From a virus (Duplodnaviria; Heunggongvirae; Uroviricota; Caudoviricetes): a stretch of 64,000 bases of DNA. This document shows positions 25,947 through 31,074 of this stretch, in pieces. Location: the IMG/VR virus record IMGVR_UViG_2718218133_000001; one strand, written 5' to 3'. A program made the translations under genes and the position numbers. Numbering within the stretch: the stretch's first letter is position 1; the number at the start of each line of letters is the position of its first letter. The notes below the pieces were generated by a model, which was not told the DNA's origin, searched no databases, and was given only the letters and a program-made list of their open reading frames with translations.

Positions 25947-26978
25947 ATGTCCAATTTACTGACCGTACACCAAAATTTGCCTGCATTACCGGTCGATGCA
26001 ACGAGTGATGAGGTTCGCAAGAACCTGATGGACATGTTCAGGGATCGCCAGGCGTTTTCTGAGCATACCTGGAAAATGCTTCTGTCCGTTTGCCGATCGT
26101 GGGCGGCATGGTGCAAGTTGAATAACCGGAAATGGTTTCCCGCAGAACCTGAAGATGTTCGCGATTATCTTCTATATCTTCAGGCGCGCGGTCTGGCAGT
26201 AAAAACTATCCAGCAACATTTGGGCCAGCTAAACATGCTTCATCGTCGGTCCGGGCTGCCACGACCAAGTGACAGTAATGCTGTTTCACTGGTCATGCGA
26301 CGGATCCGAAAAGAAAACGTTGATGCCGGTGAACGTGCAAAACAGGCACTGGCGTTCGAACGCACTGATTTCGACCAGGTTCGTTCACTCATGGAAAATA
26401 GCGATCGCTGCCAGGATATACGTAATCTGGCATTTCTGGGGATTGCTTATAACACCCTATTACGTATAGCCGAAATTGCCAGGATCAGGGTTAAAGATAT
26501 CTCACGTACTGACGGTGGGAGAATGTTAATCCATATTGGCAGAACGAAAACGCTGGTTAGCACCGCAGGTGTAGAGAAGGCACTTAGCCTGGGGGTAACT
26601 AAACTGGTCGAGCGATGGATTTCTGTCTCTGGTGTGGCTGATGATCCGAATAACTACTTGTTTTGCCGTGTCAGAAAAAATGGTGTTGCCGCGCCATCTG
26701 CCACCAGCCAGCTATCAACTCGCGCCCTGGAAGGGATTTTTGAAGCAACTCATCGATTGATTTACGGCGCTAAGGATGACTCTGGTCAGAGATACCTGGC
26801 CTGGTCTGGACACAGTGCCCGTGTCGGAGCCGCGCGAGATATGGCCCGCGCCGGAGTTTCAATACCGGAGATCATGCAAGCTGGTGGCTGGACCAACGTA
26901 AATATTGTCATGAACTATATCCGTAACCTGGATAGTGAAACGGGGGCAATGGTGCGCCTGCTGGAAGATGGCGATTAG
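25947..26978 (+). CDS. cre: Cre tyrosine recombinase
   Basis: 343 aa; MSNLLTVHQNLPALPVDATSDEVRKNLMDMFRDRQAFSEHTWK.. matches Cre throughout. Confidence 0.98.
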   Translation: MSNLLTVHQNLPALPVDATSDEVRKNLMDMFRDRQAFSEHTWKMLLSVCRSWAAWCKLNNRKWFPAEPEDVRDYLLYLQARGLAVKTIQQHLGQLNMLHRRSGLPRPSDSNAVSLVMRRIRKENVDAGERAKQALAFERTDFDQVRSLMENSDRCQDIRNLAFLGIAYNTLLRIAEIARIRVKDISRTDGGRMLIHIGRTKTLVSTAGVEKALSLGVTKLVERWISVSGVADDPNNYLFCRVRKNGVAAPSATSQLSTRALEGIFEATHRLIYGAKDDSGQRYLAWSGHSARVGAARDMARAGVSIPEIMQAGGWTNVNIVMNYIRNLDSETGAMVRLLEDGD

Positions 26979-27586: not shown

Positions 27587-28147
27587 ATGAAAACAATCGA
27601 ACAAAAACTTGAACAGCGCCGCGAGTGGCAGAAGGCAGCCAGAGAACGAGCGATCGCTCGGCAACGGGAAAAGTTGGCTGACCCCGCCTGGCGAGAATCG
27701 CAATATCAGAAAATGCGGGATTCTATCGACCGCCGTATCGCTAAACAGAAAGAGCGCCCACCAGCCAGCAAAACGCGGAAAAGTGCGGTAAAGATAAAAT
27801 CTCGTGGCTTGAAGGGGCGAACATCGACAGCGGAGGAACGGAGCATCGCCAATGCTCTTGGCGCTCTCCCCTGCATTGCCTGCTACATGCATGGAGTAAT
27901 ATCTGAAGAGGTATCTCTGCACCATATCTCCGGTCGTACCGCGCCGGGTTGTCACAAAAAGCAATTGCCCCTTTGTAGATGGCACCACCAGCATGCAGCA
28001 CCGGCTGAAGTAAGAGAAAAATACCCCTGGCTGGTCCCTGTTCATGCCGATGGTGTGGTTGGAGGCAAGAAAGAATTCACCTTGCTGAACAAGTCAGAGA
28101 TGGAGTTGCTGGCTGACGCCTATGAGATGGCAAACATCATGCACTAA
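27587..28147 (+). CDS. ref: Ref recombination-enhancement HNH endonuclease
   Basis: 186 aa from ATG 27587; Cys/His-rich core (CIACYMH..HHISG..CHKKQLPLCRWHH). Confidence 0.8.
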   Translation: MKTIEQKLEQRREWQKAARERAIARQREKLADPAWRESQYQKMRDSIDRRIAKQKERPPASKTRKSAVKIKSRGLKGRTSTAEERSIANALGALPCIACYMHGVISEEVSLHHISGRTAPGCHKKQLPLCRWHHQHAAPAEVREKYPWLVPVHADGVVGGKKEFTLLNKSEMELLADAYEMANIMH

Positions 28148-28336
28148 TAAATATATTATTTTTAATCTGAAATAATTGACAACTGACAAGTGACTTCAGT
28201 CAGAATCATCACATGCCCGGTACGGATGGATCCCTTTTCAAATATTCCATGGACGGCACAGTCTGAGTACCGGGCGCTACCTTCAGTTGTATTGCTAAGC
28301 CGCCGCTGGTGGCTTTTCTTTTTTGTAGGGGGCGCT

Positions 28337-28978
28337 ATGGATAAGAAAATATGCGTTGTTTCGATGAGCGTCGGCAAACCGGCGTCAATGACTGCTGCAT
28401 GGATCAACAATGAGCTAATAATGGCTGAGCGGACCAGCTACCCTGAACGCCGCCGCGATATGGAACTCCAGCTGCTGCGCGAATTGCGAGAAAAAGAGGA
28501 AAAGGGTTTTATCGTGCTGGTGGAAGAGGAAAACAGCTTTATTACTGGTCGAGTTGGCCAGCGTGTAAGGTTGCGCGATCCCTTCATGAACGGCAGACCG
28601 GTACTGATTGAAGCAATGCAGATTTACAAGGAATTGGAACGCCAGAAAGCGATCAAGTTACCGCGCAAGGAATCCGGCAAATACATCCTTCACCAAAGCA
28701 TCTTCGATTCCGAACACGATAAAAAAGGCGATGAATTTTTCAACATCAACTGGAGCGAAATAACGACAGAACATGTTCTGACGTTACTATGTTGCTTTGC
28801 GACGGAATACAACAACGTTGCCAGCGCCGACTACATCAGGGCAATGGTTGGAGAAGTTGAGGCCCGCCAGGAACCATCGTTACTAAGCCCTCTGATTAAC
28901 ATAATTCGCGGAACCCAAACGCTGGCACAAAAACAGGTGCCTAAGGGAGTATTAACAGGAAAAGGAAATTATCTATAA
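28337..28978 (+). CDS. mat: hypothetical protein at the position of P1 mat
   Basis: ATG 28337 after GGGGG; 213 aa; base composition like the backbone; symbol by position only. Confidence 0.45.
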   Translation: MDKKICVVSMSVGKPASMTAAWINNELIMAERTSYPERRRDMELQLLRELREKEEKGFIVLVEEENSFITGRVGQRVRLRDPFMNGRPVLIEAMQIYKELERQKAIKLPRKESGKYILHQSIFDSEHDKKGDEFFNINWSEITTEHVLTLLCCFATEYNNVASADYIRAMVGEVEARQEPSLLSPLINIIRGTQTLAQKQVPKGVLTGKGNYL

Positions 28979-29034
28979 ACGTCAATGCATTAGGGTATAC
29001 TTCTCCGTAGAACTATAAGTAAATGGAGTAAGTA

Positions 29035-30342
29035 ATGAGCGAATATGTTGAGTTAGCATACGCTGCCGCTACAAGCAGGCTTTGTCTATTTACCGGGACT
29101 GGCTTTTCAAAGGCAGTCTCGAACGGTGAAGCTCCAACGTGGAAGGAACTATTAAAAAAAGTTTGCAGCAAAGTTCACAATGCCAAAAAGTTGGAAGACA
29201 CGTTATTCCCTGATGATAAACCACCAGCACTGAGTCTTGAAGAAGCCGCACAAATACTATCTTTGAAGCTCAATATTGAGGGTAAGTCGATTTATGATGA
29301 AATTGTTGACATCATATCTCCAATTCAACTTGGAGAAGACATATCAAATATAAAAGATTTTTTCCAAAAAAACTCATTCCGTGTCATTACAACAAATTAT
29401 GACAAGTTGGCTGAATGCTTGGTTGGAGATGAAAGTGTGCAGTCTATCACGCCCGGCCTGCCAATTCCAAAGTATCCATCCAAGGTGAAAATATATCATG
29501 TTCATGGTTCTATTGATTCGCCAAAAAATATGATTGTCACTTCAGATGATTACTTCAGATTTATAAATTCCGATACTTATTTTTCACGAAAACTTAGTAC
29601 GATGCTGCATGAAAATACAGTTGCGATATTAGGGTATTCTTTAAGCGACACAAATCTTAAAGCAATTATAAATGACTATAAAAAATTTTCGAAAAATAAT
29701 GCCCTGTGCTCTAATATCTTTTTGATATCTCGCAACAAAGTAAGTCAAGATATGAAGGATTATTACTTCTATTGCTTTGGTATAAGGGTAATTGACAATA
29801 CAGAAATAGATTGTTTCTTTAGTCGATTAAGTTATAAGATTTCTCTCATTAAAGACATCATTGAAAGAGCGCGCGAAAATATCAGAAAAGTTGTTTCGGG
29901 GGCTTACACTTATAAAAATGAATATCTTAAATTAGAGGATTCATTTTATCAAATTATATCATCAATTATATCGGAAGGTTTAGATTGGAATGATGATAAA
30001 GTCGTTTCTCTTTTCGAAAGGATAATAGAAAAAAAGAGAAAGTTAACAAGGAATAACGGAGCGTGGGAGCAATATGAACAGTTGGCAAAATGGCTTATAT
30101 ATTTTGGAAGCATCATAGAGGTTAGCAATACTAAGTATGAAAAAACATATTTAGACGCAGTTGAATACTCGATGGGTCATATGAGTAAAGAAAGGAATTG
30201 GGGAGTTTCTTGGCATGCTTACAGAGCTTGGGAAACACGATGGCCTGCAATAATTGCCTCAAATAGATTAATGATAAAAAACCACATTGAAACATTAGGC
30301 ACCTTGAAGGACGCCAACCTTATAGTTAAGAATATAGTGTAA
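29035..30342 (+). CDS. SIR2-like (SIR2_2-type) domain protein, candidate NADase defence effector
   Basis: 435 aa; GTGFS (res 21-25), TTNYD (N121), YHVHG (H155/H157), GYSLSD; AT-rich; occupies the position of P1 res-mod. Confidence 0.6.
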   Translation: MSEYVELAYAAATSRLCLFTGTGFSKAVSNGEAPTWKELLKKVCSKVHNAKKLEDTLFPDDKPPALSLEEAAQILSLKLNIEGKSIYDEIVDIISPIQLGEDISNIKDFFQKNSFRVITTNYDKLAECLVGDESVQSITPGLPIPKYPSKVKIYHVHGSIDSPKNMIVTSDDYFRFINSDTYFSRKLSTMLHENTVAILGYSLSDTNLKAIINDYKKFSKNNALCSNIFLISRNKVSQDMKDYYFYCFGIRVIDNTEIDCFFSRLSYKISLIKDIIERARENIRKVVSGAYTYKNEYLKLEDSFYQIISSIISEGLDWNDDKVVSLFERIIEKKRKLTRNNGAWEQYEQLAKWLIYFGSIIEVSNTKYEKTYLDAVEYSMGHMSKERNWGVSWHAYRAWETRWPAIIASNRLMIKNHIETLGTLKDANLIVKNIV

Positions 30343-30354
30343 TTGTGGTCGATA

Positions 30355-30392
30355 AAAATTTATCGGGCAGATAAAACTGCCCGATAAATTAA
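30355..30392. terminator. bidirectional hairpin atttatcgggcag-ataaaa-ctgcccgataaat
   Basis: Perfect 13-bp stem between convergent SIR2-like gene and lxc. Confidence 0.55.
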
Positions 30393-30637
30393 TCAGCATT
30401 CAGGAGCAATGCGTTATCTATGATGATCTGCTCCCATTCTTCGAATGCCCGGTCACGGACGCCCTGGGGAACGCTGTTAGTTTTGAAATCGACGACCGTA
30501 CGCCATTTCCCGTCCGGACGGTACATGCGCAGAGCTTTACTTCCCCCTTCCCTGCGCACCTCAACGTTATGCTTATCAGCAAACTCTTGTAATGCTCGTA
30601 GCGTCCCATGCTTTACTGTGTAGTATCGCTTTTTCAA
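30389..30637 (-). CDS. lxc: C1 co-repressor-like small protein
   Basis: 82 aa; size and position match P1 Lxc/Bof. Confidence 0.5.
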   Translation of the reverse strand: MKKRYYTVKHGTLRALQEFADKHNVEVRREGGSKALRMYRPDGKWRTVVDFKTNSVPQGVRDRAFEEWEQIIIDNALLLNAD

Positions 30638-31074
30638 GTTTTCTCTCCAGCCTGTGCTAAGGCTTCAACTTCCAAATCGTAAGACTCAAACTCATAGTCC
30701 TGGTCGTCAACCTCTTCAGGCACTGGCAGTAAATGCCAGGCTGAGTATATCTGACCATTATCAAAACGCTCCTGGCTGTAGAGCGTCGCAGCTATGAGCG
30801 TCAGCGCCGGGCGGTCATAACGGTAAATTTTGCGAACGTCACGGTCAACGAGACGACCGAAATTACCATAACCGCGCTCCAGTAATAATTTTTTAATTTC
30901 CGGCCAGTATGGACCATAGCTGCGGTACAGGCGGGGATTTTTCAGTAATCGCCCGCGTAGCCCTGACAGGAAGAAATCAACGTATTCGTCTTCTGTCTTT
31001 CCTAACAACGCTGTACGGAGTACCGCCTCAAGATATGTTTTATTCGGTTTTATTGTATCAGATAGTGTGGCCAT
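30634..31074 (-). CDS. ulx: Ulx, encoded upstream of darB
   Basis: 146 aa; overlaps lxc start. Confidence 0.55.
   Translation of the reverse strand: MATLSDTIKPNKTYLEAVLRTALLGKTEDEYVDFFLSGLRGRLLKNPRLYRSYGPYWPEIKKLLLERGYGNFGRLVDRDVRKIYRYDRPALTLIAATLYSQERFDNGQIYSAWHLLPVPEEVDDQDYEFESYDLEVEALAQAGEKT

What the first reader, a model, noticed from the sequence alone, without database searches (positions are those of the whole stretch)
29035..30342. Single-gene SIR2-like NADase candidate occupying the P1 res-mod slot
In P1 the interval between mat and lxc holds the EcoP1I type III res and mod genes. Here it holds one 435-aa ORF and nothing else. The ORF is visibly AT-richer than the flanking backbone genes, which suggests horizontal acquisition. 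Its N-terminal ~230 residues carry SIR2_2-type motifs: GTGFS loop (res 21-25), TTNYD with Asn121 (nt 29395-29397), YHVHG with His155/His157 (nt 29503-29505), and GYSLSD. The Asn-to-His spacing is about what I recall for the catalytic Asn/His of ThsA and DSR2 NADases. The C-terminal ~200 residues match nothing I recognise and would be the presumptive sensor. No TIR, HerA or Argonaute partner is adjacent; there is a GGAG RBS 6 nt upstream and a perfect hairpin terminator straight after the stop. It is therefore best read as a compact, possibly undescribed single-gene SIR2-family abortive-infection system carried by a phage-plasmid.
Basis: partly seen in the sequence, partly recalled or inferred. 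Interest (0 to 1): 0.9.

Follow-up and report, generated by a model that had tools for sequence, protein, structure and literature searches.

The report
Stand-alone SIR2 defence candidate in P1
A P1-like phage-plasmid carries, in the slot where phage P1 keeps its restriction system, one intact gene for a SIR2-type NAD-degrading enzyme fused to a previously unclassified helical domain; it is a credible but untested anti-phage gene, a new variation on a well-known theme.

Summary
A 435-aa ORF (29035-30342, +) is the only gene between mat and lxc, and its GC is 0.35 against 0.48 for the window. Residues ~14-255 are a SIR2_2 domain (Pfam E=1e-23). Asn121 and His157 align with the catalytic Asn133 and His171 of DSR2 and are invariant in 40 homologs. 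The best fold matches are defence NADases (DSR2, ThsA, KomC, Avs5). Residues 256-435 form a confident α-solenoid with no Pfam, PDB-sequence or specific fold match. This domain occurs in only 96 protein clusters out of 1.84 billion, always behind a SIR2 domain. The gene is complete (the family is 431-437 aa) and stands alone: in 51 loci from different species no neighbouring gene recurs in more than 4. The mat-lxc slot is a cargo hotspot that elsewhere holds EcoP1I R-M and CapRel^SJ46, both validated defences. No experiment or paper on this family was found, and PGAP simply labels it "SIR2 family protein". NAD+ depletion, phage protection and the trigger are all inferred. Expression is unclear: there is no promoter of its own, so it may be co-transcribed with C1-repressed mat. 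Verdict: a real, new variant of a known kind, of moderate interest (0.5, not 0.9).

The parts
28979..29034 (+). 56-bp cargo-specific leader between the mat stop and the ATG. It contains the GGAG Shine-Dalgarno (29025-29028) and a possible anti-SD CUUCUCC (29000-29006).
   Evidence: Backbone homology with RCS47, JL22 and P1 ends just after the mat stop. The leader is identical in the 58%-identity SIR2 allele and has 1 mismatch in the 84% allele, and it is absent from chromosomal family loci. No sigma-70 consensus promoter was found. The fold is not significant (z -0.28).
29035..30342 (+). Complete 435-aa ORF: SIR2_2 domain plus C-terminal alpha-solenoid.
   Evidence: There is a full-length match to phrog_7567, 434/434. 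684 homologs were found, and the listed full-length members are about 431-437 aa.
29035..29799 (+). SIR2_2 (defence-type sirtuin) domain, residues 1-255.
   Evidence: Pfam PF13289 E=1.1e-23. phmmer to DSR2 gives E=4.5e-10 over residues 14-282, with weaker hits to KomC and ThsA. Foldseek finds DSR2, ThsA, KomC and Avs5. dN/dS is 0.054 against the 84% allele.
29095..29109 (+). GTGFS NAD-binding glycine loop (residues 21-25).
   Evidence: Invariant in 40 homologs.
29389..29403 (+). TTNYD motif (residues 119-123). Asn121 (29395-29397) is the predicted catalytic Asn.
   Evidence: Aligns with ITTNYD of DSR2, where it corresponds to N133. Invariant.
29497..29508 (+). HVHG motif (residues 155-158). 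His157 (29503-29505) is the predicted catalytic His.
   Evidence: Aligns with DSR2 H171. The deposited H171A mutant chain shows Ala at this column. H155, H157 and G158 are invariant.
29632..29649 (+). GYSLSD motif (residues 200-205).
   Evidence: G200, Y201, S202, L203 and D205 are invariant. It aligns with GYGLGD of DSR2.
29800..30339 (+). C-terminal alpha-solenoid domain (residues 256-435), the presumptive sensor or regulatory module.
30357..30390 (.). Perfect 14-bp hairpin with a 6-nt loop, between the convergent SIR2 and lxc genes. It is part of the cargo and overlaps the lxc stop codon by 2 nt.
   Evidence: dG -23.9 kcal/mol, z -6.2. The U-run is on the minus-strand side. The 58% allele carries a different hairpin, and so do the empty slot and the other cargos.
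28337..28978 (+). mat (maturation control), the left backbone flank.
   Evidence: Backbone homology is shown.
28138..28206 (+). Conserved P1 regulatory region upstream of mat: C1 operator Omat (28138-28155), Pmat -35 (28176-28181) and -10/LPmat (28201-28206). It is a possible source of SIR2 transcription.
   Evidence: 97% identical to P1. The features are as annotated in NC_005856. That SIR2 is read from here is inference only.
30389..30637 (-). lxc (modulator of C1), the right backbone flank.

Best explanation
The ORF encodes a stand-alone, two-domain anti-phage protein carried as exchangeable cargo in the mat-lxc (res-mod) hotspot of a P1-like phage-plasmid.

Proposed mechanism: the N-terminal SIR2_2 domain is an NAD+ glycohydrolase that is kept inactive in uninfected cells. 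The C-terminal alpha-solenoid, which is private to this family, senses infection. The most likely route is binding of a phage protein, as the helical C-terminal domain of DSR2 binds a tail-tube protein, and/or control of oligomerisation. Activation depletes NAD+ and aborts replication of a competing phage, which protects the lysogen population and therefore the P1-like element.

Shown here:
- the domain identity and intact catalytic Asn/His;
- the SIR2 fold;
- the completeness of the gene;
- the fixed SIR2+solenoid architecture;
- the absence of any conserved partner gene;
- location in a slot that elsewhere carries validated defence systems;
- faster amino-acid divergence of the C-terminal domain.

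Inferred, not shown:
- NADase activity;
- phage protection and its abortive nature;
- the sensing role of the C-terminal domain;
- the trigger;
- when the gene is expressed.
For: SIR2_2 profile E=1.1e-23.

PADLOC hits only to SIR2 modules of defence proteins: PDC-S25, ThsA, LmuA-SIR2, Dsr2 and Dsr1.

The closest solved structures by sequence and by fold are all defence NADases.

N121, D123, H155, H157 and GTGFS are invariant across 40 homologs at 52-87% identity.

There is no canonical sirtuin PF02146 hit and no CxxC zinc module.

In 51 loci from different species no neighbour family occurs in more than 4 loci. Seven inspected contexts differ completely.

Neighbours include Mrr_cat, ResIII, retron/DRT reverse transcriptases, TIR, dGTPase, GmrSD_N, HNH and prophage integrase.

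The same slot holds EcoP1I R-M in P1, CapRel^SJ46 in SJ46 (validated in PMC9712102), and PIN, DUF2971, YaaC-family or GNAT genes, or nothing.

The ORF has low GC and at least three alleles (100%, 84% and 58% aa identity) sit in the same slot.

dN of the C-terminal domain is about 6 times that of the SIR2 domain, and both are under purifying selection.
Against: There is no experimental evidence for this family. No paper was found in seven literature searches.

No sigma-70 consensus promoter lies in the 56-bp leader and no terminator separates the gene from mat. The gene may therefore be co-transcribed with mat, whose promoter carries a C1 operator and a late promoter. That would mean low expression in the lysogen, which fits a constitutive sentinel poorly.

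The C-terminal domain never appears with another effector. The domain shuffling typical of defence sensors is therefore absent, and the domain could simply be a structural or oligomerisation module.

Many chromosomal neighbours are housekeeping genes, and defence enrichment was not tested against a control.

None of the 18 sequenced P1-like phage isolates, and no other phage genome in INPHARED, carries the gene.

The AF2 model has low confidence at residues 184-226 even though these are highly conserved.
Confidence: 0.62

Rival explanations
1. It is an orphan effector rather than a self-contained system. On this reading the SIR2 NADase is switched on by a signal, either a small molecule or a protein, made by an unlinked host or P1 gene. 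This would resemble ThsA, which needs ThsB, or KomC, which needs KomA/B.
For: The SIR2 domain is as close to ThsA and KomC as it is to DSR2. The C-terminal domain is small, about 180 aa, and has no demonstrated ligand. There is also no evidence of effector swapping.
Against: No SLOG/STALD, Macro or other known nucleotide-binding domain is present. No neighbour is conserved in 51 loci spread across several phyla. A mobile gene that depends on an unlinked partner would be hard to spread this widely.
Confidence: 0.12
2. It is a gene serving P1's own lytic programme or inter-element competition, not a sentinel in the lysogen. It would be transcribed with mat from the C1-repressed/late promoter and would lower NAD+ or modify a target late in P1 development. 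The purpose could be to shut down the host, or to exclude co-infecting phages or plasmids.
For: The gene is on the same strand as mat, 56 bp downstream, with no promoter or terminator between them. Omat, Pmat and LPmat are conserved upstream. The leader is perfectly conserved among divergent alleles.
Against: The family is mostly chromosomal and not phage-linked. CapRel^SJ46 sits in the same slot and orientation and acts as a defence (PMC9712102). NAD+ depletion would harm P1's own replication. No isolated phage genome carries the gene.
Confidence: 0.12
3. It is a housekeeping-type NAD-dependent protein deacylase or ADP-ribosyltransferase, as the PGAP name suggests, with no role in phage defence.
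For: RefSeq labels it 'SIR2 family NAD-dependent protein deacylase'. Some chromosomal neighbours are housekeeping genes.
Against: The match is to SIR2_2 (PF13289), not canonical SIR2 PF02146. There is no zinc-ribbon CxxC. The nearest structures are all NADase immune effectors. The distribution is sporadic and horizontally mobile, and GC is low. The gene sits in a defence hotspot.
Confidence: 0.06

Closest known systems
DSR2 (defence-associated sirtuin 2, Bacillus subtilis; PDB 8k98, 8wkx and others)
   Same: It is a single-protein system with an N-terminal SIR2 NADase followed by an all-helical region. It is the best sequence match (E=4.5e-10, residues 14-282) and the best fold match (Foldseek E=2.8e-7). 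The catalytic Asn and His align.
DSR1
   Same: It is a single-gene SIR2 defence protein, and there is a weak SIR2-core match.
   Different: DSR1 is about 1260 aa. It scores 26.2 bits against a cut-off of 1400.
ThsA (type I Thoeris effector)
   Same: It has a SIR2 NADase domain of the same subfamily, seen in PADLOC ThsA at E=2e-17 and in Foldseek hits to BcThsA, SeThsA and EcThsA. The overall size is similar, about 470-480 aa.
   Different: ThsA carries a C-terminal SLOG/STALD domain that binds gcADPR, and it needs the TIR protein ThsB. Here the C-terminus is an alpha-solenoid and no TIR partner exists.
KomC (Kongming) and Avs5 SIR2 modules
   Same: They share the SIR2 NADase fold.
   Different: KomC is a bare 264-aa SIR2 that works with KomA/B and dITP. 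Avs5 has a STAND NTPase. Neither feature is present here.
PADLOC candidate PDC-S25
   Same: It is the best PADLOC hit (E=1.4e-26), and it is a single-gene SIR2 candidate.
   Different: Only profile positions 127-289 of 517 are matched, which is the SIR2 core. The rest of the profile and the C-terminal domain do not correspond, and PDC-S25 is itself unvalidated.
CapRel^SJ46 and EcoP1I (positional analogues)
   Same: They occupy exactly the same mat-lxc slot in SJ46 and P1. CapRel is likewise a single fused effector-sensor protein on the + strand.
   Different: The proteins are unrelated: one is a toxSAS tRNA pyrophosphokinase and the other a type III R-M system.

Membership tests
SIR2_2 superfamily (Pfam PF13289, defence-type sirtuin-like NADases) | Profile match above the gathering threshold | tested here: met
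   84.4 bits against a cut-off of 24.5, E=1.1e-23, profile positions 3-140 of 141.
SIR2_2 superfamily (Pfam PF13289, defence-type sirtuin-like NADases) | Catalytic Asn and His conserved and aligned with DSR2 N133 and H171 | tested here: met
   N121 and H157 align in the phmmer output, and the H171A mutant chain shows Ala at the His157 column. Both are invariant in 40 homologs.
SIR2_2 superfamily (Pfam PF13289, defence-type sirtuin-like NADases) | Rossmann-like SIR2 fold | tested here: met
   AF2 model with pLDDT 81. Foldseek gives probability 1.00 to DSR2, ThsA, KomC and Avs5.
SIR2_2 superfamily (Pfam PF13289, defence-type sirtuin-like NADases) | NAD+ glycohydrolase activity | not testable with these tools
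   This needs biochemistry.
DSR2 | Full-length equivalog match (about 1000-1200 aa; SIR2 + MID + CTD) | tested here: not met
   NCBIfam NF041819 scores 22.5 bits against a cut-off of 1400. PADLOC Dsr2 covers positions 121-243 of 1222 only.
DSR1 | Full-length equivalog match (about 1260 aa) | tested here: not met
   NF041818 scores 26.2 bits against a cut-off of 1400.
Thoeris (ThsA/ThsB) | C-terminal SLOG/STALD ligand-binding domain on the SIR2 protein | tested here: not met
   The C-terminus is an alpha-solenoid. PADLOC ThsA matches cover only the SIR2 part.
Thoeris (ThsA/ThsB) | Adjacent TIR-domain ThsB gene | tested here: not met
   There is none in the window slot. No neighbour is conserved in 51 loci.
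SIR2-HerA (Nezha) / SPARSA (SIR2-APAZ + short pAgo) / Lamassu LmuA-SIR2 / Avs5 | Obligatory partner (HerA, pAgo, LmuB/C SMC) or fused STAND NTPase | tested here: not met
   No such gene is adjacent. No neighbour recurs. The LmuA hit covers only SIR2 positions 14-238 of 433. No NTPase domain is present.
PADLOC PDC-S25 | Full-length match to the 517-aa profile | tested here: not met
   Only positions 127-289 of 517 are aligned.
Canonical sirtuin deacylases (Pfam SIR2 PF02146, CobB-like) | PF02146 match and a Cys4 zinc-ribbon module | tested here: not met
   There is no PF02146 hit at E<=1. No CxxC motif is present; the six Cys residues are scattered.
Anti-phage defence system (functional class) | Reduces phage plaquing or replication when expressed | not testable with these tools
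   Only contextual evidence is available: the hotspot is shared with EcoP1I and CapRel^SJ46 and some loci have defence-gene neighbours.
Anti-phage defence system (functional class) | Self-contained single gene (no conserved partner) | tested here: met
   ORFs within +-5 kb of 51 loci from different species were clustered. The largest neighbour family is present in 4 loci, with inconsistent side and strand.

The most novel reading that the evidence does not exclude
This family would be the smallest self-contained SIR2 immune sensor-effector. On this reading its private ~180-aa alpha-solenoid is a new kind of direct phage-protein receptor that gates the NADase, making it a 'mini-DSR'. The P1 mat-lxc slot would also be an unexploited discovery hotspot whose other cargos (YaaC-family plus a 169-aa pair, GNAT, DUF2971, PIN) are further undescribed single- or two-gene defences.
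Probability: 0.3. Interest if true: 0.65.

Novelty: new variant of a known kind. Interest (0 to 1): 0.5.

Why it matters
If it is confirmed, three things follow.

1. It adds a compact (435 aa), genetically tractable SIR2 NADase sensor to the NAD+-depletion immune repertoire, and its small sensor domain would be easy to dissect. It occurs in about 1% of complete E. coli genomes, on phage-plasmids that also spread ESBL genes, and in many Proteobacteria.

2. It shows that the classical P1 res-mod locus is a general defence-cargo slot. EcoP1I, CapRel^SJ46 and this SIR2 gene all sit there, together with at least four further cargos of unknown function. That offers a cheap route to new systems.

3. 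The gene is not reported in the one DefenseFinder-based survey of P1-like elements that I found (bioRxiv 10.1101/2025.09.12.675607), so the defence content of phage-plasmids may be under-counted.

It does not overturn any concept. Single-protein SIR2 defences are already established, with DSR1 and DSR2 as the examples.

Tried and rejected
Fragment of a larger disrupted gene: rejected. The listed full-length homologs are about 431-437 aa at 99-100% coverage.

Optional small upstream partner: rejected. The upstream ORFs in Halomonas and Pseudoalteromonas are unrelated, and no neighbour recurs in 51 loci.

Membership of DSR1, DSR2, Thoeris, SIR2-HerA, Lamassu, Avs5 or PDC-S25: rejected. Only the SIR2 core matches.

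Effector swapping on the C-terminal domain: not seen.

Homologs in isolated phage genomes: none by megablast or tblastn.

A structured RNA or Rfam element in the leader or the 3' region: none.

An own sigma-70 promoter: none by consensus scan.

Literature: seven searches found nothing on this family or on the slot as a defence hotspot. They did find the res-mod 'variable region 1' note (PMC9603915) and CapRel^SJ46 (PMC9712102). One search and one paper look-up failed on term length.

Positive selection: not supported. dN/dS is 0.05 and 0.14.
Full report
**1. The observation**

The window around the finding is a P1-like backbone. It contains cre (25947-26978), a c8-like ORF, ref, mat (to 28978), then the ORF in question. 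On the opposite strand follow lxc (30389-30637), ulx (30634-31074) and a 2255-aa darB.

The ORF runs 29035-30342 on the + strand and encodes 435 aa from an ATG. GGAG at 29025-29028 lies 6 nt upstream.

Its GC content is 0.349, against 0.483 for the whole window. The sliding profile drops to 0.30-0.38 exactly over the ORF.

In P1 (NC_005856) the interval between mat and lxc contains res, mod and an IS5.

One detail needs correcting. The perfect 14-bp hairpin after the stop codon (30357-30390; dG -23.9 kcal/mol, z -6.2) has its U-run on the minus-strand side. It therefore looks like a terminator for lxc, or a bidirectional one, and the consensus scan did not call it on the + strand.

**2. What the protein is**

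*The SIR2 domain.*
- Pfam SIR2_2 (PF13289) matches residues 117-252 at E=1.1e-23. The canonical sirtuin family does not match.
- In PADLOC the only hits are to the SIR2 cores of PDC-S25, ThsA, LmuA-SIR2, Dsr2 and Dsr1.
- The NCBIfam Dsr1 and Dsr2 equivalogs score 26 and 22 bits against cut-offs of 1400.
- Against PDB sequences the best match is DSR2 (E=4.5e-10, residues 14-282), followed by KomC and ThsA.
- In that alignment TTNYD pairs with ITTNYD of DSR2, so Asn121 corresponds to Asn133. His157 falls in the column where the deposited H171A mutant has Ala, so His157 corresponds to His171.
- There is no CxxC zinc module.

*The full-length model.*
- An AlphaFold2 model built from a 40-sequence alignment has mean pLDDT 81.
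- Its best Foldseek matches in the PDB are DSR2, BcThsA, KomC, SeThsA, EcThsA and Avs5, all of them immune NADases.

*The C-terminal domain.*
- Modelled alone, residues 255-435 give a confident model (pLDDT 88.8, pTM 0.81) made of eight to nine helices.
- A profile of the domain finds nothing in PDB sequences or in Pfam.

**3. The family**

The protein belongs to a tight, widespread family.
- 684 homologs were found. The listed full-length members are about 431-437 aa and 52-62% identical over their whole length. They come from Xenorhabdus, Pantoea, Klebsiella, Vibrio, Halomonas, Pseudomonas, Paracidovorax, Rhizobium and others.
- Both halves are strongly conserved. Invariant residues are GTGFSK, TTNYD, H155, H157 and G-Y-S-L-x-D in the SIR2 half, and W344, Q346, Y347, W353, W393, W399, W403, N410 and R411 in the C-terminal half.
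- The gene is therefore complete and under selection, not a fragment.

A profile of the C-terminal domain alone was searched against 1.84 billion representative proteins.
- Only 96 clusters matched, nearly always at positions ~255-435 of 430-480-aa proteins.
- All nine genuine divergent full-length hits that I tested have an N-terminal SIR2_2 domain. The tenth, at E=6.8e-4, is spurious.
- The architecture is fixed, and the C-terminal domain is private to this family.

**4. Single gene or not**

- Seven hand-inspected contexts share no neighbour.
  - Pantoea: next to an HD/HD_assoc dGTPase-like gene.
  - Halomonas: a defence island.
  - E. coli chromosome: the edge of a prophage, beside the integrase.
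  - Vibrio cholerae: a GmrSD_N gene about 4.7 kb downstream.
  - Pseudoalteromonas, Paracidovorax and Rhizobium: no evident defence neighbours.
- Two upstream small ORFs that looked like possible partners are unrelated to each other.
- For a systematic test I fetched the family from one genome per species, clustered all ORFs within ±5 kb of 51 full-length loci, and counted families by locus. The most frequent neighbour family occurs in 4 of 51 loci, with no consistent side or strand.
- The 125 nearest substantial neighbours hit 145 different Pfam families. The commonest are Mrr_cat and ResIII (3 each), followed by reverse transcriptase, TIR and HD (2 each). Plain housekeeping genes such as rpoC and EPSP synthase also appear.

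The gene stands alone. Its neighbourhoods are heterogeneous and only partly defence-like. I did not run a control for enrichment.

**5. The slot**

- Backbone homology to P1, RCS47 and JL22 stops just after the mat stop codon and resumes at the lxc stop codon. The cargo is therefore about 28979-30386 and includes its own leader and hairpin.
- Among 704 P1-like plasmids in PLSDB the slot holds one of the following:
  - this SIR2 allele (55 records);
  - an 84% aa allele;
  - a 58% aa allele;
  - a RelA/SpoT-domain gene;
  - a YaaC-family gene plus a 169-aa ORF;
  - a PIN-domain gene;
  - a DUF2971 gene;
  - a GNAT gene;
  - nothing.
- Among phage isolates, RCS47 has an empty slot and JL22 has a 316-aa ORF there.
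- In Salmonella phage SJ46 the slot holds the 373-aa RelA/SpoT protein. [quoted passage not shown]
- Together with EcoP1I, that makes two validated defence systems at this exact position.
- The variability and low GC of the res-mod region were already noted as 'variable region 1' (PMC9603915).
- A DefenseFinder survey of about 850 P1-like contigs lists type III R-M, dGTPase, PrrC and CapRel, and never mentions SIR2 (bioRxiv 10.1101/2025.09.12.675607).
- The gene is in 63 of 5426 complete E. coli genomes. 65 of the 66 places are on plasmids, and it is labelled 'SIR2 family NAD-dependent protein deacylase'.
- No isolated phage genome carries it or any homolog.

**6. Evolution of the alleles**

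- Against the 84% allele, the SIR2 domain is 95% identical in amino acids (dN 0.030, dN/dS 0.054). The C-terminal domain is 69% identical (dN 0.195, dN/dS 0.144).
- Both domains are under purifying selection, but the C-terminal domain changes about six times faster. This is the pattern expected for a conserved effector with a more plastic recognition module. It could also reflect mosaic recombination, because dS differs between the two domains as well.
- The 56-bp leader is identical in the 58% allele and has one mismatch in the 84% allele, whereas the coding DNA diverges from codon 3 onward.
- The 58% allele has a different 3' hairpin. This looks like cassette replacement with a left breakpoint at the start codon, or like strong constraint on the leader.

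**7. Expression (unresolved)**

- The leader has no sigma-70 consensus promoter, and no terminator separates the gene from mat.
- The region upstream of mat is 97% identical to P1 and keeps the C1 operator Omat, Pmat and the late promoter LPmat.
- If the SIR2 gene is read only from these promoters, it would be repressed in the lysogen and expressed late in lytic growth. That fits a constitutive sentinel poorly and keeps a rival explanation alive.
- The leader can fold so that CUUCUCC (29000-29006) pairs with the Shine-Dalgarno sequence, but the fold is not significant (z -0.28). Rfam finds nothing.

**8. Mechanism and verdict**

The best-supported explanation has confidence of about 0.6. It is a stand-alone SIR2 NADase immune protein. 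Its private α-solenoid would gate activity in response to infection, and activation would deplete NAD+.

Rivals:
- an orphan effector that needs an unlinked signal (0.12);
- a function in P1's lytic programme or in competition between elements, driven from the mat promoters (0.12);
- a non-immune deacylase (0.06).

The protein works like DSR2 in outline but fails the membership tests for DSR1, DSR2, Thoeris, SIR2-HerA, Lamassu, Avs5 and PDC-S25. I therefore file it only under the SIR2_2 superfamily, as a new variant of a known kind.

Its interest score is too high, however, because the theme is established, the gene is already annotated as SIR2, and nothing about its function has been shown.

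Noticed in passing
window 28979-30386; loci L007, L008, L009, L015-L021: The mat-lxc interval of P1-like elements is a cargo hotspot. It holds EcoP1I R-M, CapRel^SJ46, three SIR2 alleles, or PIN, DUF2971, YaaC-family plus 169-aa, or GNAT genes, or nothing. The YaaC pair and the GNAT gene hit no PADLOC model, so they are further uncharacterised candidates.
   Followed up: partly
window 28979-29034; L015 950-1005; L016 950-1005: The 56-bp leader is identical or nearly identical across SIR2 alleles whose coding DNA is only 62-83% identical, and divergence starts at codon 3. This suggests cassette replacement with a breakpoint at the start codon, or a constrained regulatory leader.
   Followed up: partly
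window 29000-29006 and 29025-29028: CUUCUCC in the leader can pair with the GGAG Shine-Dalgarno, which would be a possible anti-SD translational control. The fold is not statistically significant, and there is no covariation because the leader is invariant.
   Followed up: partly
window 30357-30390; L007 ~3465-3500; L008 ~4445-4500; L015 ~2320-2345: Every cargo, and also the empty slot, carries a different GC-rich hairpin abutting the lxc stop codon. In this window the U-run is on the lxc (minus) side, so the hairpin probably terminates the darB-ulx-lxc transcript.
   Followed up: partly
window 28138-28206: The C1 operator Omat, Pmat and the late promoter LPmat of P1 are conserved upstream of mat (97% identity). 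The SIR2 gene has no evident promoter of its own and may be under this control.
   Followed up: partly
protein residues 184-226 (window ~29584-29712): The AF2 full-length model has pLDDT below 50 in a segment that is among the most conserved in the family, including GYSLSD. It may be a mobile active-site or oligomer-interface element, or an effect of the shallow alignment.
   Followed up: no
L004 7311-10616 (E. coli chromosome, GCA_034525135.1): Downstream of the chromosomal 60%-identity homolog, at a prophage edge beside the integrase and near the ccm operon, there is a 3.3-kb stretch with no called gene. The related locus L006 lacks this stretch.
   Followed up: no
L003 8700-11667 (Halomonas daqingensis): A 401-aa protein with no Pfam hit, followed by a 591-aa DUF87/HerA ATPase, lies two genes downstream of the family member. 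It is probably a separate HerA-type defence pair in the same island.
   Followed up: no
L057 and L066 (Rodentibacter): In these loci the family member sits next to rpoC (RNA polymerase beta'). The gene can therefore insert among core housekeeping genes, not only in defence islands.
   Followed up: no
window 30634-31074: ulx is annotated inconsistently across records: 'Ulx-like anti-restriction' in P1 RefSeq, 'peptide-binding protein' by PGAP, and 'hypothetical' elsewhere.
   Followed up: no
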